Shown here piece by piece: positions 23,398 through 54,967 of a DNA stretch of 64,000 nucleotides. Made by a program: the position numbers and the translations under genes. The stretch is taken from the NCBI GenBank assembly GCA_030390025.1, contig CM059432.1:10044001-10108000 (forward strand). The letters run 5' to 3'. Source of the DNA: Squalus acanthias. Taxonomy: Eukaryota. The notes under the pieces were generated by a model that worked only from the letters and a program-made list of their open reading frames with translations, was not told the DNA's origin and made no database searches. The first letter of the stretch is position 1. The number at the start of each line of letters is the position of its first letter.

Positions 23398-23898
23398 CTG
23401 AAGCAGTTAAAAAAACGACTGGAATGGAATGGTTTGGTGCTGACAGGTGGTTGAAGCGAAAGGTTGCCACGATGCGGAAGGTACATCTACTGGGCATTAA
23501 ATATGCATGTTTTTTGGATTTATGCCACCGTGAAGAAAATTTGCATCTTGAGTGAAATTGGATTTTCTGAGCGAAATTAGAGGTTAAGAACCTGCTGCTC
23601 ACTCAGGAAAGAAACAACACTCATGGGGACATCCAGCCCCGTGGGGTAGGCCCGTGGTCACAGATGCACGTGCCCTTCATTGAGCGACGGAGATAGCCCT
23701 TCCTCCCAAGGCCATTCAATCGCAAGACTTTGTGCACACGCTCCAAACAACCACCACTGGACGACTAAACAAGCCTCCCACGCTCCACTGGTAGATTTGT
23801 AAACAATACACCTACTGCAGACTACATTAGTAATTGGAGAACAGTTTCCACCATGGCTGGTTGTCTCTGTAACTAACAATCGGCTGATGGAATCAATG

Positions 23899-26800
23899 GG
23901 TTCGATGTTAACTGGGGGAGGCACGTTGCGGAGGGGTGGGGCATGGGCGGGAGGGAAACTCTCCACGGGGAGCTGAGCGAGAGGTCTGGACCATTGTAAC
24001 TCCCGAATATTGTAACTCCCAAATACAGTAATCCCCAATATTGTAACTCAGGAATATTGTAACTCCCGAATATTGTAACTCCCGAATATTGTAACTCCCG
24101 AATATTGTAACTCCCGACCATTGTAACTCCCGAATAATGTAAATCCCGAATATTGTAACTCCCGAATATTGTAACTGCCGAATATTGTAACTCCCGACCA
24201 TTGTAACTCAGGAATATTGTAACTCCCGAATATTGTAACTCCCGAATATTGTAACACCCGACCATTGTAACTCCCGAATATTGTAACTCCCGAATATTGT
24301 AACTCCCGACCATTGTAACTCCCAAACATTGTAACTCCCGAATATTGTAACTACCGAATACTGTAATCCCCATTATTGTAACCCAGGCATATTGTAACTC
24401 CCGAATATTGTAACTACCGAATATTGAAACTCCCGAAAATTGTAACTCAGGAATATTGTAACTCCCGAATATTGTAACTCCCGAATATTGTAACTCCCAA
24501 ATATTGTAACTCAGGAATATTGTAACTCCCGAATATTGTAACTTCCGAATATTGTCACTCCCGAATATTGTAACTCAGGAATGTTGTAACTCCAGAATAT
24601 TGTAACTCCCGAATATTGTAACTCCCGACCATTGTAACTCCCGAATATTGTAACTCCCGAATATTGTAAATCCCGAATATTGTAACTCCCGAATATTGTA
24701 ACTCCCGACCATTGTAACTCCCGAATATTGTAACTCCCGAATATTGTAACTCCCGAATGTTGTAACTCCAGAATATTGTAACTCCCGAATATTGTAACTC
24801 CCGACCATTGTAACTCCCGAATATTGTAACTCCCGAATATTGTAACTCCCGAATATTGTAACTCCCGAATATGGTAACTGCCGAATATTGTAACACCGAA
24901 TATTGTAATTCCCGAATATTGTAACTCCCGAATATTGTAACTCAGGAATATTGTAACTCCCGAATATTGTAACTCCTGAATATTGTAACTCCCGACCATT
25001 GTAACTCCCGAATATTGTAACTCCCGAATATTGTAACTCCTGAATATTGTAACTCCTGAATATTGTAACTCCCGACCATTGTAACTCCCGAATATTGTAA
25101 CTCCTGAATATTGTAACTCCCGAATATTGTAAATCCCGAATATTGTAACTCCCGAATATTGTAACTCCCGAATATTGTAACTCCCGACCATTGTAACTCC
25201 CGACCATTGTAACTCCCGACCATTGTAACTCCCGAATACTGTAATTCCCATTATTGTAACTCAGGCATATTGCAACTCCCGAATATTGTTACTCCCGAAT
25301 ATTGTAACTCCCGAATATTGTAACTCAGGAATATTGTAACTCCCGAATATTGTAACTCCCGAATATTGTAACTCCCGAATATTGTAACTCAGGAATATTG
25401 TAACTCCCGAATATTGTAACTCCCGACCATTGTAACTCCCGAATATTATAACTCCCGAATATTGTAACTCCCGAATATTGTAACTCCCGAATATTGTAAC
25501 TGCCGAATATTGTAACTCCCGAATATTGTAACTCCAGAATATTGTAACTCCCGAATATTGTAACTCCCGAATATTGTAACTCCCAAATATTGCAACTCCC
25601 GAATATTGTAACTCTCGAATATTGTAACTCCCGAATATTGTAACTCTCGAATATTGTAACTCCCGAATATTGTAACTCCCGAATATTGTAACTCCCGACC
25701 ATTTTAAGTCCCGAATATTGTAACTCACGAATATTGTAACTCCCGAATATTGTACCTCCCGACCATTGTAACTCCCAAATATTGTAACTCCTGAATATTG
25801 TAACTCCCGACCAGAGTAACTCCCGAATATTGTAAATCCCGAATATTGTAACTCCTGCATATTGTAACTCCCGACCATTGTAACTCCCGAATATTGTAAC
25901 TCCCGACCATTGTAACCACCGAATATTGTAACTCCCGAATATTGTAACTCCCGAATATTGTAACTCTCGAATATTGTAACTCCCGAATATTGTAACTCCC
26001 GAATATTGTAACTCCCGACCATTGTAACCCCCGAATATTGTAACTCCCGACCATTGTAACTCCCGACCATTGTAACTCCCGAATATTGTAACTCCTGAAT
26101 ATTGTAACCCCCGAATATTGTAACTCCTGAATATTGTAACTCCCGAATATTGTAAATCCCGAATATTGTAACTCCCGAATATTGTAACTCCCGAACATTG
26201 TAACTCTCGAATATTGTAACTCCCGAATATTGTAACTCCCGATCATTGTAACTCCCGACCTTTGTAACTCCCGACCATTGTAACTCCCGAATATTGTAAC
26301 TCCCGAATACTGTAATCCCCATTATTGTAACTCAGGCATATTGTAACTCCCGAATATTGTAACTCCCGAATATTGTAACTCCTGAATATTGTAAGTCTCG
26401 AATATTGTAACTCCCGACCATTGTACCTCCCGAATATTGTAACTCTCGAATATTGTAACTCCCGAATATTGTAACTCCTGAATATTGTAACACCCGAATA
26501 TTGTAACTCCCGAATATTGTAACTCCCAACCATTGTAACTCCCGAATATTGTAACTCCCGAATATTGTAACTCCCGAATATTGTAACTCCCGACCATTGT
26601 AACTCCCGAATATTGTAACTCCCGACCATTGTAACTCCCGAATATTGTAACTCCCGAACATTGTAACTCCCGAATATTGTAACTCCTGAATATTGCAACT
26701 CCCGAATATTGTAACTCCCGAATATTGTAACTCTCGAATATTGTAAAACAGGAATATTGTAACTCCCGTCTATTGTAACTCCCGAATATTGTAACTCCTG

Positions 26801-29800
26801 AATATTGTAACTCCCGAATATTGTTACTCCCGAATATTGTAACTCCCGAATATTGTAACTCTCGAATATTGTAATTCCCGAATATTGTAACTCCCGAATA
26901 TTGTAAGTCCCGAATATTGTAACTCCCGAACATTGAAACTCCCGAATATTGTACCACCTGAATATTGTAACTCCCGAATATTGTACCTAAGGAATATTGT
27001 AACTCCCGAATATTGTAACTCCCGAATATTGTAACTCCCGAATCTTGTAACTCAGGAATATTGTAACTCCCGAATATTGTAACTCCCAAATATTGTAAAT
27101 CCCGACCATTGTAACTCCCGAATATTGTAACTCCCGACCATTGTAACTACCGAATATTGTAACTCCCGAATATTGTAACTCCCGAATAATGTATCTCCCG
27201 ACTATTGTAACTCCCGAATATTGTAACTCCCGAATATTGTAACACCCGAATATTGTAACTCCCGAATATTGTAACTCCCGAATATTGTAACTCCTGAATT
27301 TTGTAACTCCCGACCATTGTAACTCCCGAATATTGTAACTCCCGAATATTGTAACTCCAAATATTGTAACTCTCGAAAATTGTAACTCCCGAATATTGTA
27401 ACTCCCAAATATTGTAACTCCTGAATATTGTAACGCTCGAATATTGTAACTCTCGAATATTGTAACTCCCGAATATTGTAACTCCCGAATATTGTAACTC
27501 CCGAATATTGTAACTCTCAAATATTCTAACTCCCGAATGTTGTAACTCTCGAATATTGTAACTCCCGACCATTGTAACTCCCGAATATTGTAACTCACGA
27601 ATATTGTAACTCCCAACCATTGTAACTCCCGAATACTGTAACTCCCGAATATTGTAACTCCCAAATATTGTAACTCCCGAATATTGTAACTCCCGACCAT
27701 TGTAACTCCCGAATATTGTAACTCCCGACCATTGTAACTGCCGAATATTGTAACTCCCGAATATTGTAACTCCCGAATATTGTAACTCCCGAATATTGTA
27801 ACTACCGAATATTGTAACTACCGAATATTGTAACTCCCGAATATTGTAACTCCCGAATATTGTAACTCCCGACCAGAGTAACTCCCGGAGATTGTAACTC
27901 CCGAATATTGTAACTCCCGAATATTGTAACTCCTGAATATTGTAACTCCCGACCATTGTAACTCCCGAATATTGTAACTCCCGAATATTGTAACTCACGA
28001 TAATTGTAACCCCCGAATATTGTAACTCCCGAATATTGTAACTTCCGAATATTGTAACTCCTGAATATTGTAACTCCCGACCATTGTAACTCCCGAATAT
28101 TGTAACTCCCGAATATTGTAACTCCCGACCATTGTAACCCCCGAATATTGTAACTCCCGAATATTGTAACTCCCGACCATTGTAACTCCCAAATATTCTA
28201 ACTCCCGAATGTTGTAACTCTCGAATATTGTAACTCCCGACCATTGTAACTCCCGAATATTGTAACTCACGAATATTGCAACTCCCAACCATTGTAACTC
28301 CCGAATACTGTAACTCCCGAATATTGTAACTCCCAAATATTGTAACTCCCGAATATTGTAACTCCCGACCATTGTAACTCCCGAATATTGTAACTCCCGA
28401 CCATTGTAACTGCCGAATATTGTAACTCCCGAATATTGTAACTCCCGAATATTGTAACTCCCGACCATTGTAACTCCCGAATATTGTAACTCCCGACCAT
28501 TGTAACTCCCGAATATTGTAACTCCCAAATATTGTAACTCCCGAATATTGTAACTCCCGACCATTGTAACTCCCGAATATTGTAACTCCCGACCATTGTA
28601 ACTCCCGAATATTGTAACTGCCGAATATTGTAACTCCCGAATATTGTAACTCCCGAATATTGTAACTCCCGAATATTGTAACTACCGAATATTGTAACTA
28701 CCGAATATTGTAACTCCCGAATATTGTAACTCCCGAATATTGTAACTCCCGACCAGAGTAACTCCCGGAGATTGTAACTCCCGAATATTGTAACTCCCGA
28801 ATATTGTAACTCCTGAATATTGTAACTCCCGACCATTGTAACTCCCGAATATTGTAACTCCCAAATATTGCAACTCCCGATAATTGTAACCCCCGAATAT
28901 TGTAACTCCCGAATATTGTAACTTCCGAATATTGTAACTCCTGAATATTGTAACTCCCGACCATTGTAACTCCAGAATATTGTAACTCCCGAATATTGTA
29001 ACTCCCGACCATTGTAACCCCCGAATATTGTAACTCCCGAATATTGTAACGCCCGACCATTGTAACGCCCGAATATTGTAACTCCCGAATATTGTAACTC
29101 CCGAATATAGTAACTCCCGACCATTGTAACCCCCGAATATTGTAACTTCCGAATATTGTAACTCCCGAATATTGTAACTCCCGACTCTTGTAACTCAGGA
29201 ATATTGTAACTCCCGAATATTGTAACTCCCAAATATTGTAAATCCCGACCATTGTAACTCCCGAATATTGTAACTCCCGACCATTGTAACTACCGAATAT
29301 TGTAACTCCCGAATATTGTAACTCCCGAATAATGTATCTCCCGACTATTGTAACTCCCGAATATTGTAACTCCCGAATATTGTAACTCCCGAATATTGTA
29401 ACTCCCGAATATTGTAACTCCTGAATTTTGTAACTCCCGACCATTGTAACTCCCGAATATTGTAACTCCCGAATATTGTAACTCCAAATATTGTAACTCT
29501 CGAAAATTGTAACTCCCGAATATTGTAACTCCCAAATATTGTAACTCCTGAATATTGTAACGCTCGAATATTGTAACTCTCGAATATTGTAACTCCCGAA
29601 TATTGTAACTCCCGAATATTGTAACTCCCGAATATTGTAACTCTCAAATATTCTAACTCCCGAATGTTGTAACTCTCGAATATTGTAACTCCCGACCATT
29701 GTAACTCCCGAATATTGTAACTCACGAATATTGTAACTCCCAACCATTGTAACTCCCGAATACTGTAACTCCCGAATATTGTAACTCCCAAATATTGTAA

Positions 29801-32800
29801 CTCCCGAATATTGTAACTCCCGACCATTGTAACTCCCGAATATTGTAACTCCCGACCATTGTAACTGCCGAATATTGTAACTCCCGAATATTGTAACTCC
29901 CGAATATTGTAACTCCCGAATATTGTAACTACCGAATATTGTAACTACCGAATATTGTAACTCCCGAATATTGTAACTCCCGAATATTGTAACTCCCGAC
30001 CAGAGTAACTCCCGGAGATTGTAACTCCCGAATATTGTAACTCCCGAATATTGTAACTCCTTAATATTGTAACTCCCGACCATTGTAACTCCCGAATATT
30101 GTAACTCCCGAATATTGTAACTCCCGATAATTGTAACCCCCGAATATTGTAACTCCCGAATATTGTAACTTCCGAATATTGTAACTCCTGAATATTGTAA
30201 CTCCCGACCATTGTAACTCCCGAATATTGTAACTCCCGAATATTGTAACTCCCGACCATTGTAACCCCCGAATATTGTAACTCCCGAATATTGTAACTCC
30301 CGAATATTGTAACTCCCGACCATTGTAACTCCCAAATATTCTAACTCCCGAATGTTGTAACTCTCGAATATTGTAACTCCCGACCATTGTAACTCCCGAA
30401 TATTGTAACTCACGAATATTGCAACTCCCAACCATTGTAACTCCCGAATACTGTAACTCCCGAATATTGTAACTCCCAAATATTGTAACTCCCGAATATT
30501 GTAACTCCCGACCATTGTAACTCCCGAATATTGTAACTCCCGACCATTGTAACTGCCGAATATTGTAACTCCCGAATATTGTAACTCCCGAATATTGTAA
30601 CTCCCGAATAATGTAACTACCGAATATTGTAACTACCGAATATTGTAACTCCCGAATATTGTAACTCCCGAATATTGTAACTCCCGACCAGAGTAACTCC
30701 CGGAGATTGTAACTCCCGAATATTGTAACTCCCGAATATTGTAACTCCTGAATATTGTAACTCCCGAATATTGTAACTCCCGAATATTGTAACTCCCGAT
30801 AATTGTAACCCCCGAATATTGTAACTCCCGAATATTGTAACTTCCGAATATTGTAACTCCTGAATATTGTAACTCCCGACCATTGTAACTCCAGAATATT
30901 GTAACTCCCGAATATTGTAACTCCCGACCATTGTAACCCCCGAATATTGTAACTCCCGAATATTGTAACGCCCGACCATTGTAACCCCCGAATATTGTAA
31001 CTCCCGAATATTGTAACTCCCGAATATAGTAACTCCCGACCATTGTAACCCCCGAATATTGTAACTTCCGAATATTGTAACTCCCGAATATTGTAACTCC
31101 CGACCATTGTAACCCCCGAATATTGTAACTTCTGAATATTGTAACTCCCGAATATTGTAACTCCCGACCATTGTAACCCCCGAATATTGTAACTCCCGAA
31201 TATTGTAACTCCCGAATATTGTAACTCCCGACCATTGTAACTCTCGAATATTGTAACTCCCGAATATTGTAACTCCCGACCATTGTAACTCCCGACCATT
31301 GTAACTCTCGAATATTGTAACTCCCGAATATTGTAAATCCCGAATATTGTAACTCCCGAATATTGTAACTCCCGAATATTGTAACTCCCGACCATTGTAA
31401 CTCCCGACCATTGTAACTCCCGACCATTGTAACTCCCGAATACTGTAATTCCCATTATTGTAACTCAGGCATATTGCAACTCCCGAATATTGTTACTCCC
31501 GAATATTGTAACTCCCGAATATTGTAACTCAGGAATATTGTAACTCCCGAATATTGTAACTCCCGAATATTGTAACTCCCGAATATTGTAACTCAGGAAT
31601 ATTGTAACTCCCGAATATTGTAACTCCCGACCATTGTAACTCCCGAATATTATAACTCCCGAATATTGTAACTCCTGAATATTGTAACTCCCGAATATTG
31701 TAACTGCCGAATATTGTAACTCCCGAATATTGTAACTCCAGAATATTGTAACTCCCGAATATTGTAACTCCCGAATATTGTAACTCCCAAATATTGCAAC
31801 TCCCGAATATTGTAACTCTCGAATATTGTAACTCCCGAATATTGTAACTCTCGAATATTGTAACTCCCGAATATTGTAACTCCTGAATATTGTAACTCCC
31901 GACCATTTTAAGTCCCGAATATTGTAACTCACGAATATTGTAACTCCCGAATATTGTACCTCCCGACCATTGTAACTCCCAAATATTGTAACTCCCGAAT
32001 ATTGTAACTCCCGACCAGAGTAACTCCCGAATATTGTAAATCCCGAATATTGTAACTCCTGCATATTGTAACTCCCGACCATTGTAACTCCCGAATATTG
32101 TAACTCCCGACCATTGTAACCACCGAATATTGTAACTCCCGAATATTGTAACTCCTGAATATTGTAACTCCCGACCATTTTAAGTCCCGAATATTGTAAC
32201 TCACGAATATTGTAACTCCCGAATATTGTACCTCCCGACCATTGTAACTCCCGAATATTGTAACTTCCGAATATTGTAACTCCTGAATATTGTAACTCCC
32301 GACCATTGTAACTCCAGAATATTGTAACTCCCGAATATTGTAACTCCCGACCATTGTAACCCCCGAATATTGTAACTCCCGAATATTGTAACGCCCGACC
32401 ATTGTAACGCCCGAATATTGTAACTCCCGAATATTGTAACTCCCGAATATAGTAACTCCCGACCATTGTAACCCCCGAATATTGTAACTTCCGAATATTG
32501 TAACTCCCGAATATTGTAACTCCCGACTCTTGTAACTCAGGAATATTGTAACTCCCGAATATTGTAACTCCCAAATATTGTAAATCCCGACCATTGTAAC
32601 TCCCGAATATTGTAACTCCCGACCATTGTAACTACCGAATATTGTAACTCCCGAATATTGTAACTCCCGAATAATGTATCTCCCGACTATTGTAACTCCC
32701 GAATATTGTAACTCCCGAATATTGTAACTCCCGAATATTGTAACTCCCGAATATTGTAACTCCTGAATTTTGTAACTCCCGACCATTGTAACTCCCGAAT

Positions 32801-35800
32801 ATTGTAACTCCCGAATATTGTAACTCCAAATATTGTAACTCTCGAAAATTGTAACTCCCGAATATTGTAACTCCCAAATATTGTAACTCCTGAATATTGT
32901 AACGCTCGAATATTGTAACTCTCGAATATTGTAACTCCCGAATATTGTAACTCCCGAATATTGTAACTCCCGAATATTGTAACTCTCAAATATTCTAACT
33001 CCCGAATGTTGTAACTCTCGAATATTGTAACTCCCGACCATTGTAACTCCCGAATATTGTAACTCACGAATATTGTAACTCCCAACCATTGTAACTCCCG
33101 AATACTGTAACTCCCGAATATTGTAACTCCCAAATATTGTAACTCCCGAATATTGTAACTCCCGACCATTGTAACTCCCGAATATTGTAACTCCCGACCA
33201 TTGTAACTGCCGAATATTGTAACTCCCGAATATTGTAACTCCCGAATATTGTAACTCCCGAATATTGTAACTACCGAATATTGTAACTACCGAATATTGT
33301 AACTCCCGAATATTGTAACTCCCGAATATTGTAACTCCCGACCAGAGTAACTCCCGGAGATTGTAACTCCCGAATATTGTAACTCCCGAATATTGTAACT
33401 CCTTAATATTGTAACTCCCGACCATTGTAACTCCCGAATATTGTAACTCCCGAATATTGTAACTCCCGATAATTGTAACCCCCGAATATTGTAACTCCCG
33501 AATATTGTAACTTCCGAATATTGTAACTCCTGAATATTGTAACTCCCGACCATTGTAACTCCCGAATATTGTAACTCCCGAATATTGTAACTCCCGACCA
33601 TTGTAACCCCCGAATATTGTAACTCCCGAATATTGTAACTCCCGAATATTGTAACTCCCGACCATTGTAACTCCCAAATATTCTAACTCCCGAATGTTGT
33701 AACTCTCGAATATTGTAACTCCCGACCATTGTAACTCCCGAATATTGTAACTCACGAATATTGCAACTCCCAACCATTGTAACTCCCGAATACTGTAACT
33801 CCCGAATATTGTAACTCCCAAATATTGTAACTCCCGAATATTGTAACTCCCGACCATTGTAACTCCCGAATATTGTAACTCCCGACCATTGTAACTGCCG
33901 AATATTGTAACTCCCGAATATTGTAACTCCCGAATATTGTAACTCCCGAATAATGTAACTACCGAATATTGTAACAACCGAATATTGTAACTCCCGAATA
34001 TTGTAACTCCCGAATATTGTAACTCCCGACCAGAGTAACTCCCGGAGATTGTAACTCCCGAATATTGTAACTCCCGAATATTGTAACTCCTGAATATTGT
34101 AACTCCCGAATATTGTAACTCCCGAATATTGTAACTCCCGATAATTGTAACCCCCGAATATTGTAACTCCCGAATATTGTAACTTCCGAATATTGTAACT
34201 CCTGAATATTGTAACTCCCGACCATTGTAACTCCAGAATATTGTAACTCCCGAATATTGTAACTCCCGACCATTGTAACCCCCGAATATTGTAACTCCCG
34301 AATATTGTAACGCCCGACCATTGTAACCCCCGAATATTGTAACTCCCGAATATTGTAACTCCCGAATATAGTAACTCCCGACCATTGTAACCCCCGAATA
34401 TTGTAACTTCCGAATATTGTAACTCCCGAATATTGTAACTCCCGACCATTGTAACCCCCGAATATTGTAACTTCTGAATATTGTAACTCCCGAATATTGT
34501 AACTCCCGACCATTGTAACCCCCGAATATTGTAACTCCCGAATATTGTAACTCCCGAATATTGTAACTCCCGACCATTGTAACTCTCGAATATTGTAACT
34601 CCCGAATATTGTAACTCCCGACCATTGTAACTCCCGACCATTGTAACTCTCGAATATTGTAACTCCCGAATATTGTAAATCCCGAATATTGTAACTCCCG
34701 AATATTGTAACTCCCGAATATTGTAACTCCCGACCATTGTAACTCCCGACCATTGTAACTCCCGACCATTGTAACTCCCGAATACTGTAATTCCCATTAT
34801 TGTAACTCAGGCATATTGCAACTCCCGAATATTGTTACTCCCGAATATTGTAACTCCCGAATATTGTAACTCAGGAATATTGTAACTCCCGAATATTGTA
34901 ACTCCCGAATATTGTAACTCCCGAATATTGTAACTCAGGAATATTGTAACTCCCGAATATTGTAACTCCCGACCATTGTAACTCCCGAATATTATAACTC
35001 CCGAATATTGTAACTCCTGAATATTGTAACTCCCGAATATTGTAACTGCCGAATATTGTAACTCCCGAATATTGTAACTCCAGAATATTGTAACTCCCGA
35101 ATATTGTAACTCCCGAATATTGTAACTCCCAAATATTGCAACTCCCGAATATTGTAACTCTCGAATATTGTAACTCCCGAATATTGTAACTCTCGAATAT
35201 TGTAACTCCCGAATATTGTAACTCCTGAATATTGTAACTCCCGACCATTTTAAGTCCCGAATATTGTAACTCACGAATATTGTAACTCCCGAATATTGTA
35301 CCTCCCGACCATTGTAACTCCCAAATATTGTAACTCCCGAATATTGTAACTCCCGACCAGAGTAACTCCCGAATATTGTAAATCCCGAATATTGTAACTC
35401 CTGCATATTGTAACTCCCGACCATTGTAACTCCCGAATATTGTAACTCCCGACCATTGTAACCACCGAATATTGTAACTCCCGAATATTGTAACTCCCGA
35501 ATATTGTAACTCTCGAATATTGTAACTCCCGAATATTGTAACTCCCGAATATTGTAACTCCCGACCATTGTAACCCCCGAATATTGTAACTCCCGACCAT
35601 TGTAACTCCCGACCATTGTAACTCCCGAATATTGTAACTCCTGAATATTGTAACCCCCGAATATTGTAACTCCTGAATATTGTAACTCCCGAATATTGTA
35701 AATCCCGAATATTGTAACTCCCGAATATTGTAACTCCCGAACATTGTAACTCTCGAATATTGTAACTCCCGAATATTGTAACTCCCGATCATTGTAACTC

Positions 35801-38800: not shown

Positions 38801-41800
38801 TAACTCCCGAATATTGTAACTCCTGAATATTGTAAGTCTCGAATATTGTAACTCCCGACCATTGTACCTCCCGAATATTGTAACTCTCGAATATTGTAAC
38901 TCCCGAATATTGTAACTCCTGAATATTGTAACACCCGAATATTGTAACTCCCGAATATTGTAACTCCCAACCATTGTAACTCCCGAATATTGTAACTCCC
39001 GAATATTGTAACTCCCGAATATTGTAACTCCCGACCATTGTAACTCCCGAATATTGTAACTCCCGACCATTGTAACTCCCGAATATTGTAACTCCCGAAC
39101 ATTGTAACTCCCGAATATTGTAACTCCTGAATATTGCAACTCCCGAATATTGTAACTCCCGAATATTGTAACTCTCGAATATTGTAACACAGGAATATTG
39201 TAACTCCCGTCTATTGTAACTCCCGAATATTGTAACTCCTGAATATTGTAACTCCCGAATATTGTTACTCCCGAATATTGTAACTCCCGAATATTGTAAC
39301 TCTCGAATATTGTAATTCCCGAATATTGTAACTCCCGAATATTGTAAGTCCCGAATATTGTAACTCCCGAACATTGAAACTCCCGAATATTGTACCTCCT
39401 GAATATTGTAACTCCCGAATATTGTACCTAAGGAATATTGTAACTCCCGAATATTGTAACTCCGAATATTGTAACTCCCGAATCTTGTAACTCAGAATAT
39501 TGTAACTCCCGAATATTGTAACTCCCGAATATTGTAAATCCCGACCATTGTAACTCCCGAATATTGTAACTCCCGACCATTGTAACTACCGAATATTGTA
39601 ACTCCCGAATATTGTAACTCCCGAATATTGTATCTCCCGACTATTGTAACTCCCGAATATTGTAACTCCCGAATATTGTAACACCCGAATATTGTAACTC
39701 CCGAATATTGTAACTCCCGAATATTGTAACTCCTGAATTTTGTAACTCCCGACCATTGTAACTCCCGAATATTGTAACTCCCGAATATTGTAACTCCAAA
39801 TATTGTAACTCTCGAAAATTGTAACTCCCGAATATTGTAACTCCCAAATATTGTAACTCCTGAATATTGTAACGCTCGAATATTGTAACTCTCGAATATT
39901 GTAACTCCCGAATATTGTAACTCCCGAATATTGTAACTCTCAAATATTCTAACTCCCGAATGTTGTAACTCTCGAATATTGTAACTCCCGACCATTGTAA
40001 CTCCCGAATATTGTAACTCACGAATATTGTAACTCCCAACCATTGTAACTCCCGAATACTGTAACTCCCGAATATTGTAACTCCCAAATATTGTAACTCC
40101 CGAATATTGTAACTCCCGACCATTGTAACTCCCGAATATTGTAACTCCCGACCATTGTAACTGCCGAATATTGTAACTCCCGAATATTGTAACTCCCGAA
40201 TATTGTAACTACCGAATATTGTAACTCCCGAATATTGTAACTCCCGAATATTGTAACTCCCGAATATTGTAACTCTCAAATATTGTAACTCCCGAATGTT
40301 GTAACTCTCGAATATTGTAACTCCCGACCATTGTAACTCCCGAATATTGTAACTCACGAATATTGTAACTCCCAACCATTGTAACTCCCGAATACTGTAA
40401 CTCCCGAATATTGTAACTCCCAAATATTGTAACTCCCGAATATTGTAACTCCCGACCATTGTAACTCCCGAATATTGTAACTCCCGACCATTGTAACTGC
40501 CGAATATTGTAACTCCCGAATATTGTAACTCCCGAATATTGTAACTCCCGAATATTGTAACTACCGAATATTGTAACTACCGAATATTGTAACTCCCGAA
40601 TATTGTAACTCCCGAATATTGTAACTCCCGACCAGAGTAACTCCCGGAGATTGTAACTCCCGAATATTGTAACTCCCGAATATTGTAACTCCTGAATATT
40701 GTAACTCCCGACCATTGTAACTCCCGAATATTGTAACTCCCGAATATTGTAACTCCCGATAATTGTAACCCCCGAATATTGTAACTCCCGAATATTGTAA
40801 CTTCCGAATATTGTAACTCCTGAATATTGTAACTCCCGACCATTGTAACTCCCGAATATTGTAACTCCCGAATATTGTAACTCCCGACCATTGTAACCCC
40901 CGAATATTGTAACTCCCGAATATTGTAACTCCCGAATATTGTAACTCCCGACCATTGTAACTCCCAAATATTCTAACTCCCGAATGTTGTAACTCTCGAA
41001 TATTGTAACTCCCGACCATTGTAACTCCCGAATATTGTAACTCATGAATATTGCAACTCCCAACCATTGTAACTCCCGAATACTGTAACTCCCGAATATT
41101 GTAACTCCCAAATATTGTAACTCCCGAATATTGTAACTCCCGACCATTGTAACTCCCGAATATTGTAACTCCCGACCATTGTAACTGCCGAATATTGTAA
41201 CTCCCGAATATTGTAACTCCCGAATATTGTAACTCCCGAATACTGTAACTACCGAATATTGTAACTACCGAATATTGTAACTCCCGAATATTGTAACTCC
41301 CGAATATTGTAACTCCCGACCAGAGTAACTCCCGGAGATTGTAACTCCCAAATATTGTAACTCCCGAATATTGTAACTCCTGAATATTGTAACTCCCGAA
41401 TATTGTAACTCCCGAATATTGTAACTCCCGATAATTGTAACCCCCGAATATTGTAACTCCCGAATATTGTAACTTCCGAATATTGTAACTCCTGAATATT
41501 GTAACTCCCGACCATTGTAACTCCAGAATATTGTAACTCCCGAATATTGTAACTCCCGACCATTGTAACCCCCGAATATTGTAACTCCCGAATATTGTAA
41601 CGCCCGACCATTGTAACCCCCGAATATTGTAACTCCCGAATATTGTAACTCCCGAATATAGTAACTCCCGACCATTGTAACCCCCGAATATTGTAACTTC
41701 CGAATATTGTAACTCCCGAATATTGTAACTCCCGACCATTGTAACCCCCGAATATTGTAACTTCTGAATATTGTAACTCCCGAATATTGTAACTCCCGAC

Positions 41801-44800
41801 CATTGTAACCCCCGAATATTGTAACTCCCGAATATTGTAACTCCCGAATATTGTAACTCCCGACCATTGTAACTCTCGAATATTGTAACTCCCGAATATT
41901 GTAACTCCCGACCATTGTAACTCCCAACCATTGTAACTCTCGAATATTGTAACTCCCGAATATTGTAACTCCTGAATATTGTAACTCCTGAATATTGTAA
42001 CTCCCAAATATTGTAACTCCTGAATATTGTAACTCCCGAATATTGTAACTCCTGAATATTGTAACTATCGAATATGGTAACTCCCGACCATTGTAACTCC
42101 TGTAAATTGTAACTCACGAATATTGTAACTCCCGACCATTGTAACTCCCGAATATTGTAACTCCTGAATATTGTAACTCCCGAATATTGTAACTCCTGAA
42201 TTTTGTAACTCCCGACCATTGTAACTCCCGAATATTGTAACTCCCGAATATTGTAACTCCAAATATTGTAACTCTCGAAAATTGTAACTCCCGAATATTG
42301 TAACTCCCAAATATTGTAACTCCTGAATATTGTAACGCTCGAATATTGTAACTCTCGAATATTGTAACTCCCGAATATTGTAACTCCCGAATATTGTAAC
42401 TCTCGAATATTGTAACTCCCGAATATTGTAACTCCCGAATATTGTAACTCCCGACCATTTTAAGTCCCGAATATTGTAACTCACGAATATTGTAACTCCC
42501 GAATATTGTACCTCCCGACCATTGTAACTCCCAAATATTGTAACTCCCGAATATTGTAACTCCCGACCAGAGTAACTCCCGAATATTGTAAATCCCGAAT
42601 ATTGTAACTCCTGCATATTGTAACTCCCGACCATTGTAACTCCCGAATATTGTAACTCCCGACCATTGTAACCACCGAATATTGTAACTCCCGAATATTG
42701 TAACTCCCGAATATTGTAACTCTCGAATATTGTAACTCCCGAATATTGTAACTCCCGAATATTGTAACTCCCGACCATTGTAACCCCCGAATATTGTAAC
42801 TCCCGACCATTGTAACTCCCGACCATTGTAACTCCCGAATATTGTAACTCCTGAATATTGTAACCCCCGAATATTGTAACTCCTGAATATTGTAACTCCC
42901 GAATATTGTAAATCCCGAATATTGTAACTCCCGAATATTGTAACTCCCGAACATTGTAACTCTCGAATATTGTAACTCCCGAATATTGTAACTCCCGACC
43001 ATTGTAACTCCCGACCTTTGTAACTCCCGACCATTGTAACTCCCGAATATTGTAACTCCCGAATACTGTAATCCCCATTATTGTAACTCAGGCATATTGT
43101 AACTCCCGAATATTGTAACTCCCGAATATTGTAACTCCTGAATATTGTAAGTCTCGAATATTGTAACTCCCGACCATTGTACCTCCCGAATATTGTAACT
43201 CTCGAATATTGTAACTCCCGAATATTGTAACTCCTGAATATTGTAACACCCGAATATTGTAACTCCCGAATATTGTAACTCCCAACCATTGTAACTCCCG
43301 AATATTGTAACTCCCGAATATTGTAACTCCCGAATATTGTAACTCCCGACCATTGTAACTCCCGAATATTGTAACTCCCGACCATTGTAACTCCCGAATA
43401 TTGTAACTCCCGAACATTGTAACTCCCGAATATTGTAACTCCTGAATATTGCAACTCCCGAATATTGTAACTCCCGAATATTGTAACTCTCGAATATTGT
43501 AACACAGGAATATTGTAACTCCCGTCTATTGTAACTCCCGAATATTGTAACTCCTGAATATTGTAACTCCCGAATATTGTTACTCCCGAATATTGTAACT
43601 CCCGAATATTGTAACTCTCGAATATTGTAATTCCCGAATATTGTAACTCCCGAATATTGTAAGTCCCGAATATTGTAACTCCCGAACATTGAAACTCCCG
43701 AATATTGTACCACCTGAATATTGTAACTCCCGAATATTGTACCTAAGGAATATTGTAACTCCCGAATATTGTAACTCCCGAATATTGTAACTCCCGAATC
43801 TTGTAACTCAGGAATATTGTAACTCCCGAATATTGTAACTCCCAAATATTGTAAATCCCGACCATTGTAACTCCCGAATATTGTAACTCCCGACCATTGT
43901 AACTACCGAATATTGTAACTCCCGAATATTGTAACTCCCGAATAATGTATCTCCCGACTATTGTAACTCCCGAATATTGTAACTCCCGAATATTGTAACA
44001 CCCGAATATTGTAACTCTCGAATATTGTAACTCCCGAATATTGTAACTCCTGAATTTTGTAACTCCCGACCATTGTAACTCCCGAATATTGTAACTCCCG
44101 AATATTGTAACTCCAAATATTGTAACTCTCGAAAATTGTAACTCCCGAATATTGTAACTCCCAAATATTGTAACTCCTGAATATTGTAACGCTCGAATAT
44201 TGTAACTCTCGAATATTGTAACTCCCGAATATTGTAACTCCCGAATATTGTAACTCCCGAATATTGTAACTCTCAAATATTCTAACTCCCGAATGTTGTA
44301 ACTCTCGAATATTGTAACTCCCGACCATTGTAACTCCCGAATATTGTAACTCACGAATATTGTAACTCCCAACCATTGTAACTCCCGAATACTGTAACTC
44401 CCGAATATTGTAACTCCCAAATATTGTAACTCCCGAATATTGTAACTCCCGACCATTGTAACTCCCGAATATTGTAACTCCCGACCATTGTAACTGCCGA
44501 ATATTGTAACTCCCGAATATTGTAACTCCCGAATATTGTAACTACCGAATATTGTAACTACCGAATATTGTAACTCCCGAATATTGTAACTCCCGAATAT
44601 TGTAACTCCCGACCAGAGTAACTCCCGGAGATTGTAACTCCCGAATATTGTAACTCCCGAATATTGTAACTCCTGAATATTGTAACTCCCGACCATTGTA
44701 ACTCCCGAATATTGTAACTCCCGAATATTGTAACTCCCGATAATTGTAACCCCCGAATATTGTAACTCCCGAATATTGTAACTTCCGAATATTGTAACTC

Positions 44801-47800
44801 CTGAATATTGTAACTCCCGACCATTGTAACTCCCGAATATTGTAACTCCCGAATATTGTAACTCCCGACCATTGTAACCCCCGAATATTGTAACTCCCGA
44901 ATATTGTAACTCCCGACCATTGTAACTCCCAAATATTCTAACTCCCGAATGTTGTAACTCTCGAATATTGTAACTCCCGACCATTGTAACTCCCGAATAT
45001 TGTAACTCACGAATATTGCAACTCCCAACCATTGTAACTCCCGAATACTGTAACTCCCGAATATTGTAACTCCCAAATATTGTAACTCCCGAATATTGTA
45101 ACTCCCGACCATTGTAACTCCCGAATATTGTAACTCCCGACCATTGTAACTGCCGAATATTGTAACTCCCGAATATTGTAACTCCCGAATATTGTAACTC
45201 CCGAATATTGTAACTACCGAATATTGTAACTACCGAATATTGTAACTCCCGAATATTGTAACTCCCGAATATTGTAACTCCCGACCAGAGTAACTCCCGG
45301 AGATTGTAACTCCCGAATATTGTAACTCCCGAATATTGTAACTCCTGAATATTGTAACTCCCGACCATTGTAACTCCCGAATATTGTAACTCCCGAATAT
45401 TGCAACTCCCGATAATTGTAACCCCCGAATATTGTAACTCCCGAATATTGTAACTTCCGAATATTGTAACTCCTGAATATTGTAACCAACGACCATTGTA
45501 ACTCCAGAATATTGTAACTCCCGAATATTGTAACTCCCGACCATTGTAACCCCCGAATATTGTAACTCCCGAATATTGTAACGCCCGACCATTGTAACCC
45601 CCGAATATTGTAACTCCCGAATATTGTAACTCCCGAATATAGTAACTCCCGACCATTGTAACCCCCGAATATTGTAACTTCCGAATATTGTAACTCCCGA
45701 ATATTGTAACTCCCGAATCTTGTAACTCAGGAATATTGTAACTCCCGAATATTGTAACTCCCAAATATTGTAAATCCCGACCATTGTAACTCCCGAATAT
45801 TGTAACTCCCGACCATTGTAACTACCGAATATTGTAACTCCCGAATATTGTAACTCCCGAATAATGTATCTCCCGACTATTGTAACTCCCGAATATTGTA
45901 ACTCCCGAATATTGTAACTCCCGAATATTGTAACTCCTGAATTTTGTAACTCCCGACCATTGTAACTCCCGAATATTGTAACTCCCGAATATTGTAACTC
46001 CAAATATTGTAACTCTCGAAAATTGTAACTCCCGAATATTGTAACTCCCAAATATTGTAACTCCTGAATATTGTAACGCTCGAATATTGTAACTCTCGAA
46101 TATTGTAACTCCCGAATATTGTAACTCCCGAATATTGTAACTCCCGAATATTGTAACTCTCAAATATTCTAACTCCCGAATGTTGTAACTCTCGAATATT
46201 GTAACTCCCGACCATTGTAACTCCCGAATATTGTAACTCACGAATATTGTAACTCCCAACCATTGTAACTCCCGAATACTGTAACTCCCGAATATTGTAA
46301 CTCCCAAATATTGTAACTCCCGAATATTGTAACTCCCGACCATTGTAACTCCCGAATATTGTAACTCCCGACCATTGTAACTGCCGAATATTGTAAATCC
46401 CGAATATTGATACTCCCGAATATTGTAACTCCCGAATATTGTAACTGCCGAATATTGTAACTACCGAATATTGTAACTCCCGAATATTGTAACTCCCGAA
46501 TATTGTAACTCCCGACCAGAGTAACTCCCGGAGATTGTAACTCCCGAATATTGTAACTCCCGAATATTGTAACTCCTGAATATTGTAACTCCCGACCATT
46601 GTAACTCCCGAATATTGTAACTCCCGAATATTGTAACTCCCGATAATTGTAACCCCCGAATATTGTAACTCCCGAATATTGTAACTTCCGAATATTGTAA
46701 CTCCTGAATATTGTAACTCCCGACCATTGTAACTCCCGAATATTGTAACTCCCGAATATTGTAACTCCCGACCATTGTAACCCCCGAATATTGTAACTCC
46801 CGAATATTGTAACTCCCGAATATTGTAACTCCCGACCATTGTAACTCCCAAATATTCTAACTCCCGAATGTTGTAACTCTCGAATATTGTAACTCCCGAC
46901 CATAGTAACTCCCGAATATTGTAACTCACGAATATTGCAACTCCCAACCATTGTAACTCCCGAATACTGTAACTCCCGAATATTGTAACTCCCAAATATT
47001 GTAACTCCCGAATATTGTAACTCCCGACCATTGTAACTCCCGAATATTGTAACTCCCGACCATTGTAACTGCCGAATATTGTAACTCCCGAATATTGTAA
47101 CTCCCGAATATTGTAACTCCCGAATACTGTAACTACCGAATATTGTAACTACCGAATATTGTAACTCCCGAATATTGTAACTCCCGAATATTGTAACTCC
47201 CGACCAGAGTAACTCCCGGAGATTGTAACTCCCGAATATTGTAACTCCCGAATATTGTAACTCCTGAATATTGTAACTCCCGAATATTGTAACTCCCGAA
47301 TATTGTAACTCCCGATAATTGTAACCCCCGAATATTGTAACTCCCGAATATTGTAACTTCCGAATATTGTAACTCCTGAATATTGTAACTCCCGACCATT
47401 GTAACTCCAGAATATTGTAACTCCCGAATATTGTAACTCCCGACCATTGTAACCCCCGAATATTGTAACTCCCGAATATTGTAACGCCCGACCATTGTAA
47501 CCCCCGAATATTGTAACTCCCGAATATTGTAACTCCCGAATATTGTAACTCCCGACCATTGTAACCCCCGAATATTGTAACTTCCGAATATTGTAACTCC
47601 CGAATATTGTAACTCCCGACCATTGTAACCCCCGAATATTGTAACTTCCGAATATTGTAACTCCCGAATATTGTAACTCCCGACCATTGTAACCCCCGAA
47701 TATTGTAACTCCCGAATATTGTAACTCCCGAATATTGTAACTCCCGACCATTGTAACTCTCGAATATTGTAACTCCCGAATATTGTAACTCCCGACCATT

Positions 47801-50800
47801 GTAACTCCCGACCATTGTAACTCTCGAATATTGTAACTCCCGAATATTGTAACTCCTGAATATTGTAACTCCTGAATATTGTAACTCCCGAATATTGTAA
47901 CTCCTGAATATTGTAACTCCCGAATATTGTAACTCCTGAATATTGTAACTATCGAATATTGTAACTCCCGACCATTGTAACTCCTGTAAATTGTAACTCA
48001 CGAATATTGTAACTCCCGACCATTGTAACTCCCGAATATTGTAACTCCTGAATATTGTAACTCCCGAATATTGTAACTCCTGAATTTTGTAACTCCCGAC
48101 CATTGTAACTCCCGAATATTGTAACTCCCGAATATTGTAACTCCAAATATTGTAACTCTCGAAAATTGTAACTCCCGAATATTGTAACTCCCAAATATTG
48201 TAACTCCTGAATATTGTAACGCTCGAATATTGTAACTCTCGAATATTGTAACTCCCGAATATTGTAACTCCCGAATATTGTAACTCCCGAATATTGTAAC
48301 TCTCAAATATTCTAACTCCCGAATGTTGTAACTCTCGAATATTATAACTCCCGACCATTGTAACTCCCGAATATTGTAACTCACGAATATTGTAACTCCC
48401 AACCATTGTAACTCCCGAATACTGTAACTCCCGAATATTGTAACTCCCAAATATTTCACTCCCGAATGTTGTAACTCCCGACCATTGTAACTCCCGAATA
48501 TTGTAACTCCCGACCATTGTAACTGCCGAATATTGTAACTCCCGAATATTGTAACTCCCGAATATTGTAACTCCCGAATATTGTAACTACCGAATATTGT
48601 AACTACCGAATATTGTAACTCCCGAATATTGTAACTCCCGAATATTGTAACTCCCGACCAGAGTAACTCCCGGAGATTGTAACTCCCGAATATTGTAACT
48701 CCCGAATATTGTAACTCCTGAATATTGTAACTCCCGACCATTGTAACTCCCGAATATTGTAACTCCCGAATATTGTAACTCCCGATAATTGTAACCCCCG
48801 ACCATTGTAACTCCCGAATATTGTAACTCCCGAATATTGTAACTCCCGACCATTGTAACCCCCGAATATTGTAACTCCCGAATATTGTAACTCCCGACCA
48901 TTGTAACTCCCAAATATTCTAACTCCCGAATGTTGTAACTCTCGAATACTGTAACTCCCGACCATTGTAACTCCCGAATATTGTAACTCACGAATATTGC
49001 AACTCCCAACCATTGTAACTCTCGAATACTGTAACTCCCGAATATTGTAACTCCCAAATATTGTAACTCCCGAATATTGTAACTCCCGACCATTGTAACT
49101 CCCGAATATTGTAACTCCCGACCATTGTAACTGCCGAATATTGTAACTCCCGAATATTGTAACTCCCGAATATTGTAACTCCCGAATATTGTAACTCCCG
49201 AATATTGTAACTCCCGAATATTGTAACTCCCGAATATTGTAACTCCCGAATATTGTAACTCCCGACCAGAGTAACTCCCGGATATTGTAACTCCCGAATA
49301 TTGTAACTCCCGAATATTGTAACTCCCGAATATTGTAACTCCCGACCATTGTAACCCCCGAATATTGTAACTCCCGAATATTGTAACTCCCGATATTGTA
49401 ACTCCCGACCATTGTAACTCCCGAATATTGTAACTTCCGAATATTGTAACTCCGAATATTGTAACTCCCGACCATTGTAACCGCCGAATATTGTAACTTC
49501 CGAATATTGTAACTCCCGAATATTGTAACTCCCGACCATTGTAACTACCGAATATTGTAACTCCCGAATATTGTAACTCCCGAATATTGTAACTCCTGAC
49601 AAGAGTAACTCCCGGAGATTGTAACTCCCGAATATTGTAACTCCTGATAATTGTAACTCCCGACCATTGTAACTCCCGAATATTGTAACTCCCGAATATT
49701 GTAACTCCCGATAATTGTAACCCCCGAATATTGTAACTCCCGAATATTGTAACTTCCGAATATTGTAACTCCTGAATATTGTAACTCCCGACCATTGTAA
49801 CTCCCGAATATTGTAACGCCCGAATATTGTAACTCCCGACCATTGTAACCCCCGAATATTGTAACTCCCGAATATTGTAGCTCCCGAATATTGTAACGCC
49901 CGACCATTGTAACCCCCGAATATTGTAACTCCCGAATATTGTAACTCCCGAATATTGTAACTCCCGACCATTGTAACCCCCGAATATTGTAACTCCCGAA
50001 TATTGTAACTCCCGAATATTGTAACTCCCGACCATTGTAACCCCCGAATATTGTAACTTCCGAATATTGTAACTCCCGAATATTGTAACTCCCGACCATT
50101 GTAAGCCCCGAATATTGTAACTCCCGAATATTGTAACTCCCGAATATTGTAACTCCCGACCATTGTAACTCTCGAATATTGTAACTCCCGAATATTGTAA
50201 CTCCCGACCATTGTAACTCCCGAATATTGTAACTCCCGAATATTGTAACTCCTGAATATTGTAACTCCTGAATATTGTAACACCCGAATATTGTAACTCC
50301 CGAATATTGTAACTCCCGAATATTGTAACTCCCAACCATTGTAACTCCCGAATATTGTAACTCCCGAATATTGTAACTCCTGAATAATGTATCTCCCGAA
50401 TATTGTAATTCCCGAATATTGTAACTCTCGAATATTGTAACTCCCGAATATTGTAACTCCCGACCATTGTAACTCCCGACCATTGTAACTCTTGAATATT
50501 GTAACTCCCGAATATTGTAACTCCCGAATATTGTAACTCCTGAATATTGTAACTCCCGAATACTGTAACACCTGAATATTGTAACTCCCGAATATTGTAA
50601 CTCCCAACCATTGTAACTCCCGAATATTGTAACTCCCGAATATTGTAACTCCCGAATATTGTAACTCCTGAATAATGTATCTCCCGAATATTGTAACTCC
50701 CGAATATTGTAACCTCCGACCATTGTAACTCCCGAATATTGTAACTCCTGAATATTGTAACTCCCGAATATTGTAACTCCCGAATATTTTAACTCCCAAA

Positions 50801-51869
50801 TATTGTAACTCCCGAATATTGTAACTCCCAAATATTGTAACCCCCGAATATTGTAACTCCCGAATATTGTAACTCCCAAATATTGTAACCCCCGAATATT
50901 GTAACTCCCGAATATTGTAACTCCCAAATATTGTAACCCCCGAATATTGTAACTCCCGAATATTGTAACTCCCAAATATTGTAACCCCCGAATATTGTAA
51001 CTCCCGACTATTGTAACTCCCGAATATTGTAACTCCCGAATATTGTAACTCCCGACCATTGTAACTCCCGAATATTGTAACTCCCGAATATTGTAACTCC
51101 CGAATAATGTATCTCCCGAATATTGTAACTCCCGAATATTGTAACTACTGACCATTGTAACTCCCGAATGTTGTAACTCCCGAATATTGTAACTCCCGAA
51201 TATTGTAACTCCCGAATATTGTAACTCCCGACCATTGTAACTCCCGAATATTGTAACTCCCGAATATTGTAACTCCCGAATAATGTATCTCCCGAATATT
51301 GTAACTCCCGAATATTGTAACTACTGACCATTGTAACTCCCGAATGTTGTAACTCCCGAATATTATAACTCCCGAATATTGTAACTCCCGAATATTGTAA
51401 CTACCGAATATTGTAACTCCTGAATATTGTAACTCCCGCATATTGTAACTCCCGAATATTGTAACTCGCGGGCCTCATTTAAATAATCCAATGCTGTTTC
51501 CCTCCTGGAGCTGGCAGGACTGACGTCAGGGCCGCTGGGCAGGAGCGGGAACAAGAATGTGGTCGGGAGCCCAAGGACCCAAATGAACGATCCTCGGCAC
51601 GAATTTTAAAATTTCACACCCGACTCAAACCGCCTCCAACCCGCCCACTTCCGGCTTTAAATGGAGCGCGAGTGACCCATTGGCTCTCAGGAGGCGGGTC
51701 GGTCGGTAACAGCTTTTAAGGAGGCTGAGTGCCTCCTTTTTAAAATCCTTTGTATATTCAACTAATGCCAGGCGGGTTTCCCGTCCATAACTCATCCTCA
51801 TCCGCCGTCCCACACACCCCCCGTCCCCCCACCCCGCTCCGAACTCACAGCCACGTAAATATCGAGGGT
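23899..51869. mobile_element. Putative MITE hosting the satellite (arms 23899-23990 and 51468-51869)
   Basis: Left GGGTTCGATGTTAAC..GCGGAGGGGTGGGG is an imperfect inverted match to right CCCCACCCCGCTCCG..GTAAATATCGAG. The junction motif TAACTC(G/C)CGGGCCT also occurs singly at 5945-5958. Confidence 0.5.
23991..51467. repeat. 16-bp satellite array, about 27.5 kb and about 1,700 monomers
   Basis: Continuous head-to-tail TAACTCCCGAATATTG. Major variant TAACTCCCGACCATTG, plus recurrent point variants and 15-bp deletion monomers. Confidence 0.99.
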
Positions 51870-51890
51870 CAAGATGTCGCTGGGCAGAAA

Positions 51891-53775: not shown

Positions 53776-54224
53776 TGAGGCCTCGGGCCGCTAAGTGGAC
53801 GCGGAAGATTTTAACCCCTTCCCACGCACCGTTTCCTCCCCCCATCCCCCACCCCCCTCCCAATTCTCAGAAATCGCACATTCCGAAGCGAGAGTTCCCG
53901 ACACTAATTAATGGTTTATTTATTACAGAGAAAAACAGGCAGGATCCCATTTTTTTTCATTAAAAGAGAAATTTTGGGCTTATGACGGTTGGAAACTTAT
54001 GGCAGGGCCTAGCAAATGGTTTGCAGGTTCAGGTGGTGTCTTGTGTTCTACCAACGGGGATTGAGAGGTCAAGTGCTCAAGTGAGTGCAATTTAGTTTAG
54101 ATTTGAATATTTATGAACAAACCTGATGCGCACAGGCAAACTAGCTACAAATTTGCATCAGAATAGAGGAAGTGCGCACATCAAATGGGCCACATCAGCA
54201 ATGCATTAATGAAGCTATTCAATC

Positions 54225-54690
54225 TAACGAAGCTCAACGTAAGCTCGAGGAACAGCACCTCACCTTTCTAGTAAGCACTTTACAGCTTTCTGTTCTTAAC
54301 ATCGAGTTCAACAATTTCAGACTATAAATTGGCCCCTGTATTTCTTTCTATTTTTTTCTCTCTTGTTTCCTCACATGGTAGCTGTTAATGTTGCTGCCGT
54401 CATCATCCACACATCATCTAGAGCCATTTTTTATTTCTTAACTTGTCCCATTACCATCTCCTTTTGCCTCGCGCCATCATCCCTTTTGTCTCTTAATCTC
54501 TCCTGCCTTCCATCCTACCACAGACCTTCCCTTTTGTTCTTTCATCCCCTCCTCCCTGCCCCTGCTTAAAAACCGCTCCTCCCTCACCTTTTCCACTTCT
54601 GACGAAGGGTCATCGACCCGAAACGTTGACCCTGTTTCTCCTCCCCTCGATGCTGCCTGACCTGCTAAGTGTTTCCAGCACTTCCTGTTG
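54225..54690 (+). mobile_element. Penelope-like element: GIY-YIG endonuclease C-terminus and pLTR with hammerhead motif (54594-54633)
   Basis: Translates as NEAQRKLEEQHLTFLVSTLQLSVLNIEFNNFRL*. Contains CTGACGA-A-GGGTC ATC GACCC-GAAA-CG-TT. Confidence 0.82.
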
Positions 54691-54967
54691 GTGTTTAATC
54701 TGCTGCTTGGTCCAATCTTTTGCAACAAAAAAAAATTCATTTAAAAAAAAATACCAGAATAACCCAATGCATCGACCTCGCTGAAAAGGAGGAAGCTGAG
54801 ACATTTCACACACAACTTGAAAAATCATCAATTAAACAAAACCGTGGATAGACCCTACGGTAGTGAGGTTAGCCTCATATATAAGCAGAACAGCAGGGAA
54901 AGATGAATGCTTAAAAGGCAGAATAAGATTCCAGAAGCAAACATATAAGCAATAAATATATATATAT

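What the first reader, a model, noticed from the sequence alone, without database searches (positions are those of the whole stretch)
23899..51869. A 27.5-kb satellite apparently born from one 16-bp motif inside a MITE
Seen: the array starts cleanly after ...GAGAGGTCTG and ends in TAACTC|GCGGGCCTCATTTAAAT. The 90 bp to its left and the far end of the 400 bp to its right are imperfect inverted copies of each other (TTCGATGTTAAC..CGGAGGGGTGGGG versus the reverse of CCCCACCCCGCTCCG..GTAAATATCGAG). A single unexpanded TTTAACTCCCGGGCCT occurs in another GC-rich element at 5943-5958. Inference: a non-autonomous transposon of about 500 bp seeded the array, which amplified about 1,700-fold while leaving both arms in place. 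That would be a rare snapshot of satellite birth.
Basis: partly seen in the sequence, partly recalled or inferred. Interest (0 to 1): 0.8.

Follow-up and report, generated by a model that had tools for sequence, protein, structure and literature searches.

The report
Satellite grown inside a miniature transposon
A 27.5-kb run of about 1,700 sixteen-base repeats ends seamlessly in a scattered transposon-like repeat that carries most of the repeat unit once, so the array likely grew in place from that element, but it is old (a diverged relative has the same junction) and this origin for satellites is already known.

Summary
The array is real: 23989-51467, 1,719 units of 16 bp. Its right flank is dispersed repeat DNA. 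Contigs of four public runs hold 14-19% diverged copies, and 4 of 12 listed ones reach 10-11 bases into the last unit, so the motif belongs to the family. A truncated element at 5854 carries the motif 91 bp behind a TIR-like start; the array starts 99 bp behind one. The claimed inverted likeness of the flanks is not above shuffles (293 of 2,000), no target-site duplication lies in register, and no copy spanning the joined junction was seen. That the left 91 bp belong to the same element is therefore inferred. This is not a fresh birth: a run whose flank differs by 6-9% has the same array-flank junction. The core was recently rebuilt by multi-kb duplications, and the edges look older. MITE-born satellites are known (Xenopus miDNA4, Xstir). 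The scan noted analogous transposon-born arrays in this genome, but not this repeat. Verdict: new member of a known kind; interest 0.32.

The parts
23898..23988 (+). Left arm: TIR-like start followed by GC-rich DNA; inferred 5' end of the parent element
23989..51467 (+). Tandem array, 1,719 units of 16 bp (1,695 of 16, 23 of 15, 1 of 14); two main unit types (GAAT- and GACC-starting) mixed evenly along it
23989..25105 (+). Left edge zone, 70 units outside any long duplicated block; 14 of 70 units are rare variants
25106..48272 (+). Core rebuilt by multi-kb duplications; includes the tandem pair 28911-32140 / 32253-35482 with 1 difference in 3,230 bases
   Evidence: 1,307 of 1,719 units lie in duplicated blocks of 40 or more units
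48273..51467 (+). Right edge zone, about 200 units outside long duplicated blocks; 13 of the last 130 units are rare variants
51458..51551 (+). Junction block: last 10 bases of the final unit plus 84 bp, matched by a lower-copy dispersed family
   Evidence: table 8: 12 of 32 listed records are dispersed copies here (14-19% different); 4 of the 12 start at 51457-51458
51596..51782 (+). Block matched by a very high-copy dispersed family
   Evidence: 459-957 contigs laid per run, with depth peaks at 51628-51659 and 51692-51739; loose-end consensus roughly colinear with the window
51855..51869 (-). Right TIR-like end
   Evidence: 9 of 15 identical to the left start; outer triplet CAA
5854..5975 (+). 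Truncated element with a TIR-like start and one unexpanded motif (5943-5958) 91 bp inside; LINE-like DNA follows from about 5987
   Evidence: the 16 bases ending at 5952 match the unit consensus at 12 of 16 and are followed by GGGCCT, as at the array's end

Best explanation
The 27.5-kb array of 16-bp units ends inside a motif that dispersed copies of its right flank carry once, and it likely grew in place from that motif in one old copy of a roughly 500-bp non-autonomous inverted-repeat element whose 5' end is probably the 91 bp to its left. Inferred order of events: (1) the element inserted and decayed, so its ends now agree at only 9 of 15 bases; (2) a 16-bp stretch about 95 bp inside the 5' end was duplicated, probably by slippage or unequal exchange; (3) the array expanded before the window's lineage split from organism E, because E has the same junction; (4) unequal exchange has since kept replacing the middle by multi-kb duplications, while the edges, which pair poorly against unique flanks, kept older variants. 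Shown: the array, its block structure, the dispersed nature of the right flank, the overlap of family and last unit, and the shared junction in organisms A and E. Inferred: membership of the left arm, the first duplication step, and the exchange mechanism. It is most likely neutral DNA.
For:: records 9, 17, 18 and 25 (77-94 bases, 14-17 differences; about three distinct loci, since 9 and 25 look like one locus in two organisms) align from 51457-51458, inside the last unit. Records 17 and 18 go on for 141 and 113 letters that do not fit the three array units offered. In run X16 the bin 51452-51467 has half the depth of the next bin (62.7 against 124.5), as expected if most family contigs cover its last ten bases; the 5854 element has the motif at +91 from a TIR-like start (12 of 16 to the unit, then GGGCCT); the array's first unit lies at +99, and a weaker match in the complete 1676-2436 element at +98. 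Left arm plus first unit scores best against 5854 among 24,130 windows. X1 record 1 (2 differences in 235) and X15 record 10 (7 in 115) both carry array units joined to this flank. X15 record 12 and X17 record 32 run 22 bp past the right end at about 9-10% difference, which points to orthologous loci; rare variants are 14 of 70 and 13 of 130 at the edges against 33 of 1,519 in the middle.
Against: No record joining left-arm sequence to right-arm sequence was seen. The inverted likeness of the arms is not above shuffles, and no target-site duplication lies in register. The best score against 5854 (60) is barely above background (58.5, 58, 56), and without the TIR and motif the interiors align no better than 76 of 1,000 shuffles. 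The match at 1774 has 3 mismatches to the junction 14-mer, with 2.3 such expected by chance. 8 of the 12 listed dispersed records start only at 51469-51475. 6 of 12 stop at 51551 with 156-319 letters unlaid, and no listed dispersed record bridges 51551 to 51626, so the right flank may be two elements. Whether other arrays of this unit exist was not tested.
Confidence: 0.62

Rival explanations
1. The array grew in place from the right-hand element's motif, but the left 91 bp are the end of a different element brought next to the array by a deletion or a later insertion. A variant: the unit came from the TIR-adjacent copy of the motif, so the right-hand element began at the array.
For: Arm likeness at chance level and no TSD in register. 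TIR-like ends are common here, with four complete elements in 36 kb. The 5854 TIR-like start itself contains a stretch like the unit.
Against: The spacing from TIR-like start to motif (99 bp) matches that of the 5854 element (91 bp). There the internal copy, not the TIR-adjacent one, is followed by GGGCCT. Summed arm length (about 509 bp with one unit) matches the roughly 500-bp element at about 60335-60835.
Confidence: 0.2
2. The satellite was born at another copy of the family and reached this locus by recombination or repair synthesis at the matching motif, so this is one array of a dispersed family and not the birthplace.
For: The motif is in many dispersed copies, giving many landing sites. 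Earlier notes on this genome say two CR1-derived arrays proved to be genome-wide families (e1-7790172, e1-7790274; unchecked).
Against: Both junctions fall at the position where the motif is expected in the element. The edges hold private variants. The junction is shared with organism E.
Confidence: 0.14
3. The array arose independently and only happens to abut the repeat; or much of its length is an assembly over-expansion.
For: One 3.2-kb tandem duplicate differs by a single base, which a mis-assembly could produce.
Against: Dispersed copies extend into the last unit, and array-flank contigs exist in two runs. Other duplicated blocks differ by 3-12 bases in about 2 kb, a graded series. 769 of 1,719 units remain after removing exact copies of 15 or more units.
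Confidence: 0.04

Closest known systems
miDNA4 MITE and its satellite, Xenopus tropicalis (Scalvenzi & Pollet 2014; seen only as described in passages of PMC12628747 and PMC9659126)
   Same: A satellite monomer lies inside a non-autonomous TIR element, as a single unit or as an array; long arrays are proposed to lose their inverted ends by mutation.
   Different: miDNA4 is a Tc1/mariner MITE with variable arrays in many copies, and the authors propose capture of a pre-existing repeat. Here one 27.5-kb array of a 16-bp unit is seen, dispersed copies show only a single partial unit, and the superfamily is not established.
Xstir tandem repeat from the Xmix MITE, Xenopus (Hikosaka & Kawahara 2004; seen only as described in passages of PMC12628747, PMC9659126, PMC6947457)
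   Same: Tandem repeat derived from internal MITE sequence; MITE-only, array-only and composite forms exist.
   Different: The proposed mechanism joins two nearby elements through a stem-loop. Here the unit is 16 bp and best explained by local duplication.
Minisatellites born inside Alu, B1 and MaLR elements (Haber & Louis 1998 model; passages and table of PMC6947457)
   Same: A short internal motif of a dispersed element is duplicated, then amplified in place by slippage and unequal exchange.
   Different: That review puts minisatellites at up to about 100 units; this array has 1,719. A flanking 5-10-bp direct repeat at exactly 16-bp spacing was not evident by eye.
Tetris/TIR-220 of Drosophila virilis (PMC4079207) and DTC84 of Donax (PMC3879986); search listing and start of abstract only, plus a table row in PMC9659126
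   Same: Class II non-autonomous elements carrying tandem repeats that can feed satellite arrays.
   Different: By their titles and abstract starts the repeats are a regular part of the element family; here expansion is seen in one copy only.

Membership tests
MITE (the two flanks taken as one element) | Short (80-500 bp per a passage of PMC2874221) | tested here: inconclusive
   91 + 402 bp plus one unit is about 509 bp, but only if the arms belong together.
MITE (the two flanks taken as one element) | Terminal inverted repeats | tested here: inconclusive
   9 of 15 terminal bases agree; whole-arm score reached by 293 of 2,000 shuffles.
MITE (the two flanks taken as one element) | Target-site duplication | tested here: inconclusive
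   AAT against CAA in TIR register (no match); CAA/CAA with a one-base shift, which chance gives easily.
MITE (the two flanks taken as one element) | No transposase coding | tested here: met
   Six-frame translation shows only short or chance frames. Searches with two frames crossing the junctions gave nothing or chance repeat proteins.
MITE (right flank) | Many dispersed copies | tested here: met
   459-957 contigs laid per run in 4 of 4 runs, most under 95% alike.
MITE (left flank) | Many dispersed copies, colinear across the junction with the right flank | not tested
   Reads were laid on the right flank; the junction's loose ends were not among the rows shown; no genome held.
PIF/Harbinger-type element | 3-bp target duplication and G-rich TIR start (features recalled, from no call) | tested here: inconclusive
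   Neighbours 6097-6940 (AAA/AAA) and 57011-57893 (TTA/TTA) fit; the candidate's triplets do not match in register.
Satellite DNA | Long head-to-tail array with homogenised units | tested here: met
   27.5 kb, mean 6.4% from consensus, 1,307 of 1,719 units in duplicated blocks.
Satellite DNA | Genome-scale abundance or heterochromatic location | not testable with these tools
   No genome; contig depth is not a copy number.
miDNA4-type MITE-borne satellite | Many element copies carry arrays of varying unit number | tested here: inconclusive
   The 12 listed dispersed records show at most one partial unit; 3,141 records were not shown.

The most novel reading that the evidence does not exclude
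The amplified 16-mer is a functional subterminal protein-binding motif of this transposon group (it recurs beside the TIR and 91-98 bp inside). The array is then an old, single-locus bank of about 1,700 binding sites for the transposase or its DNA-binding partner, kept across species as a sink or a chromatin-nucleating site, with its parent's two ends still marking the birthplace.
Probability: 0.08. Interest if true: 0.65.

Novelty: new member of a known kind. Interest (0 to 1): 0.32.

Why it matters
If the left arm proves to be part of the same element, this locus gives a satellite with a known ancestral unit, both parental ends and orthologous arrays in several related species. One could then measure how fast a 16-bp unit drifts and how often multi-kb blocks turn over, from a fixed starting point. 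The route (MITE motif to satellite) is already described, so the value is as a well-preserved example in a lineage where three literature searches listed no paper whose title or abstract start describes such an array. It is not a new mechanism.

Tried and rejected
Pattern scans for flank motifs found 0 matches in metagenome contigs and 0 in prokaryote genomes. The 2 viral-contig matches had unrelated surroundings and were dropped as chance. Protein searches for spurious frames of dispersed copies: no candidate, 50 candidates with none at E up to 1, and 2 hits of 1.84 billion that read as an ankyrin-like and another repeat protein by eye, dropped as chance. Rfam found 0 matches in 51400-64000. 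Look-ups of earlier findings by sequence or relatives found no look-alike; only 214 windows of this genome have notes, so this says little about other arrays. Run X16 (organism F) shows depth 1-2 over the array-only bins while the flank family is present; contigs cannot show absence, so this is only a hint that F lacks the array. Summed depth over the array bins in X1, X15 and X17 (1,400-4,100) is below what this one array's commonest 31-mers (about 340 copies) would give at single-copy depth 14-38; summed depth is no copy number, so I do not count it. Rejected: the arms as long inverted copies; a coding role (minus-strand open frames of up to 955 codons follow from the stop-free unit); a mobile 28-kb element (decayed ends).

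Full report
Setting. The window is dense in LINE fragments (reverse-transcriptase and endonuclease domains at 9746-12226) and short inverted-repeat elements. Earlier scan notes call the genome shark-type (unchecked), which agrees with my recollection of such repeats; I did not test the taxon. No whole genome was held.

The array. TRF reports one array of period 16 and 1,718.6 copies at 23993-51467. Decomposition from 23989 gives 1,719 units and 116 variants; 786 units equal the consensus and the mean distance is 6.4%, flat along the array. Units starting GACC make up 304 of 1,719 and are spread evenly, and the very first unit is of this type. The middle is a mosaic of long duplications: 16 block pairs, 1,307 of 1,719 units covered. 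The six largest pairs differ by 1 base in 3,230, 4 in 2,158, 12 in 2,095, 3 in 1,983, 9 in 1,951 and 10 in 1,951. The first 70 and last 200 units lie outside such blocks. Rare variants are 14 of 70 at the left edge, 13 of the last 130 at the right, and 33 of 1,519 between. I infer repeated unequal exchange in the core; passages of PMC5615363 name unequal crossing-over as an amplifying and homogenising mechanism, while the expectation of older edges is my own knowledge. The single-difference duplicate could also be an assembly error.

The flanks as inverted arms. Among 24,148 windows the right end is only the third-best match to the left arm. The terminal 15 bases agree at 9 positions. The outer triplets are AAT and CAA, or CAA and CAA with a one-base shift. 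By contrast 6097-6940 and 57011-57893 have near-perfect ends with AAA/AAA and TTA/TTA. The two ends are therefore compatible with one old element but do not prove it.

The motif elsewhere in the window. The junction 14-mer has one match within 1 or 2 mismatches outside the array, at 5945, against 0.017 and 0.15 expected. That copy lies 91 bp behind a TIR-like start at 5854, and its 16 bases match the unit at 12 of 16. The array's first unit lies 99 bp behind the left TIR-like start. A third, weak match lies 98 bp inside the complete element 1676-2436, but at 3 mismatches, where 2.3 matches are expected by chance. Left arm plus first unit aligns best to 5854 of 24,130 windows (score 60; next 58.5, 58, 56), yet the interiors alone are not significant (76 of 1,000 shuffles), and the TIR pattern was my own. 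This shared spacing is the main support for the left arm, and it is modest.

Public runs. A search with 51468-53224 listed 24 runs, best share 0.59. I laid 4 of them (organisms A, E, F, G; 3 studies) on 51420-51895 at 80% likeness. All four hold hundreds of diverged contigs, so the right flank is dispersed repeat DNA, with a lower-copy block at 51458-51551 and a very high-copy block at about 51612-51782. Of 32 listed records (3,141 not shown), 12 are dispersed copies of the first block, 14-19% different. Four of them align from 51457-51458, that is 10-11 bases into the last unit; eight start at 51469-51475. Records 17 and 18 continue upstream for 141 and 113 letters that do not fit the array. 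In run X16 the bin holding the last unit has half the depth of the next bin. So the family carries the right-hand part of the unit once, followed by the same GGGCCTC sequence: the array ends inside a family motif without a seam. What lies further upstream in those copies was not printed (460 loose-end rows cut), so the decisive test failed for want of output. Against a single colinear element: six records (about three loci) stop at 51551 with 156-319 letters unlaid, cover is thin at 51552-51611, and only one X16 contig joins 51490 to 51561.

Age. X1 record 1 matches 51425-51659 with 2 differences and continues in array units, in a different order from the window's. X15 record 10 matches 51459-51573 with 7 differences and carries array units upstream; I tie its joint rows to it by their equal depth of 28.4. 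X15 record 12 (24 differences and 4 gaps in 258) and X17 records 27 and 32 (15 in 178; 11 and 3 gaps in 107) are much closer than dispersed copies, and records 12 and 32 run past the right end, so they are likely orthologous. The array at this junction is thus shown in A and E. In G the array sequence and the flank are both present, but no listed record bridges them. The birth predates a split that left 6-10% divergence in the flank, while parts of the core are under 0.1% diverged. It is a preserved birthplace, not a fresh birth. I give no date in years.

Mechanism. Most likely an old non-autonomous TIR element of about 500 bp suffered a local duplication of 16 bp about 95 bp inside its 5' end, and unequal exchange then lengthened and kept renewing the array (confidence 0.62). 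In-place origin from the right-hand family alone is more secure, about 0.8 when the first rival is added. Rivals: a foreign left arm (0.2), seeding from an array born at another copy (0.14), chance or artefact (0.04).

Known cases. Passages of PMC12628747 and PMC9659126 describe miDNA4 (a monomer inside a MITE, single or arrayed) and Xstir. Passages of PMC6947457 describe minisatellites born in Alu, B1 and MaLR elements. I saw the primary papers only as cited there, and no supplements. Passages of PMC11406177 mention shark satellites without a transposon origin. Searches listed no paper whose title or abstract start describes this repeat; the library lacks most subscription papers. Earlier notes of this scan report arrays born from L2 and CR1 pieces in the same genome (e1-7857509, e1-9958159, e1-7790172, e1-7790274), none checked here.

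Verdict. Observation partly confirmed, interpretation partly supported. It works like a MITE-born satellite. I do not file the joined flanks as a proven MITE, because TIR, TSD and colinearity are inconclusive or untested. New member of a known kind; interest 0.32.

Noticed in passing
window 1676-2436, 6097-6940, 57011-57893, about 60335-60835: Four complete short inverted-repeat elements with G-rich ends and 3-bp flanking triplets (ATT/AAT in palindromic flanks, AAA/AAA, TTA/TTA, TTA/TTA); 6097-6940 interrupts a LINE fragment.
   Followed up: partly
window about 18400-18990, minus strand: Decayed frames that I recognise from memory as a Harbinger-type transposase C-terminal half (no convincing Pfam hit for the 80-aa piece), running directly into a 1.9-kb GT/GA microsatellite at 16499-18386.
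   Followed up: partly
   Followed up: no
window 19909-20096: Hairpin with 93-base arms, 96% complementary, 2 bases between the arms.
   Followed up: no
window 28911-35482: Tandem duplicate of about 3.3 kb inside the array with 1 difference in 3,230 bases: a very recent event or an assembly error.
   Followed up: partly
window 51425-51467 against X1 record 1 and X15 record 10: The order of unit variants differs within three units of the right junction in organism A. Organism E has extra units there, the last preceded by letters resembling those before the 5943 motif, which may be a more ancestral end.
   Followed up: partly
window 23989-51467, minus strand: The unit has no stop codon on the minus strand, giving chance open frames up to 955 codons that gene finders could miscall.
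   Followed up: yes
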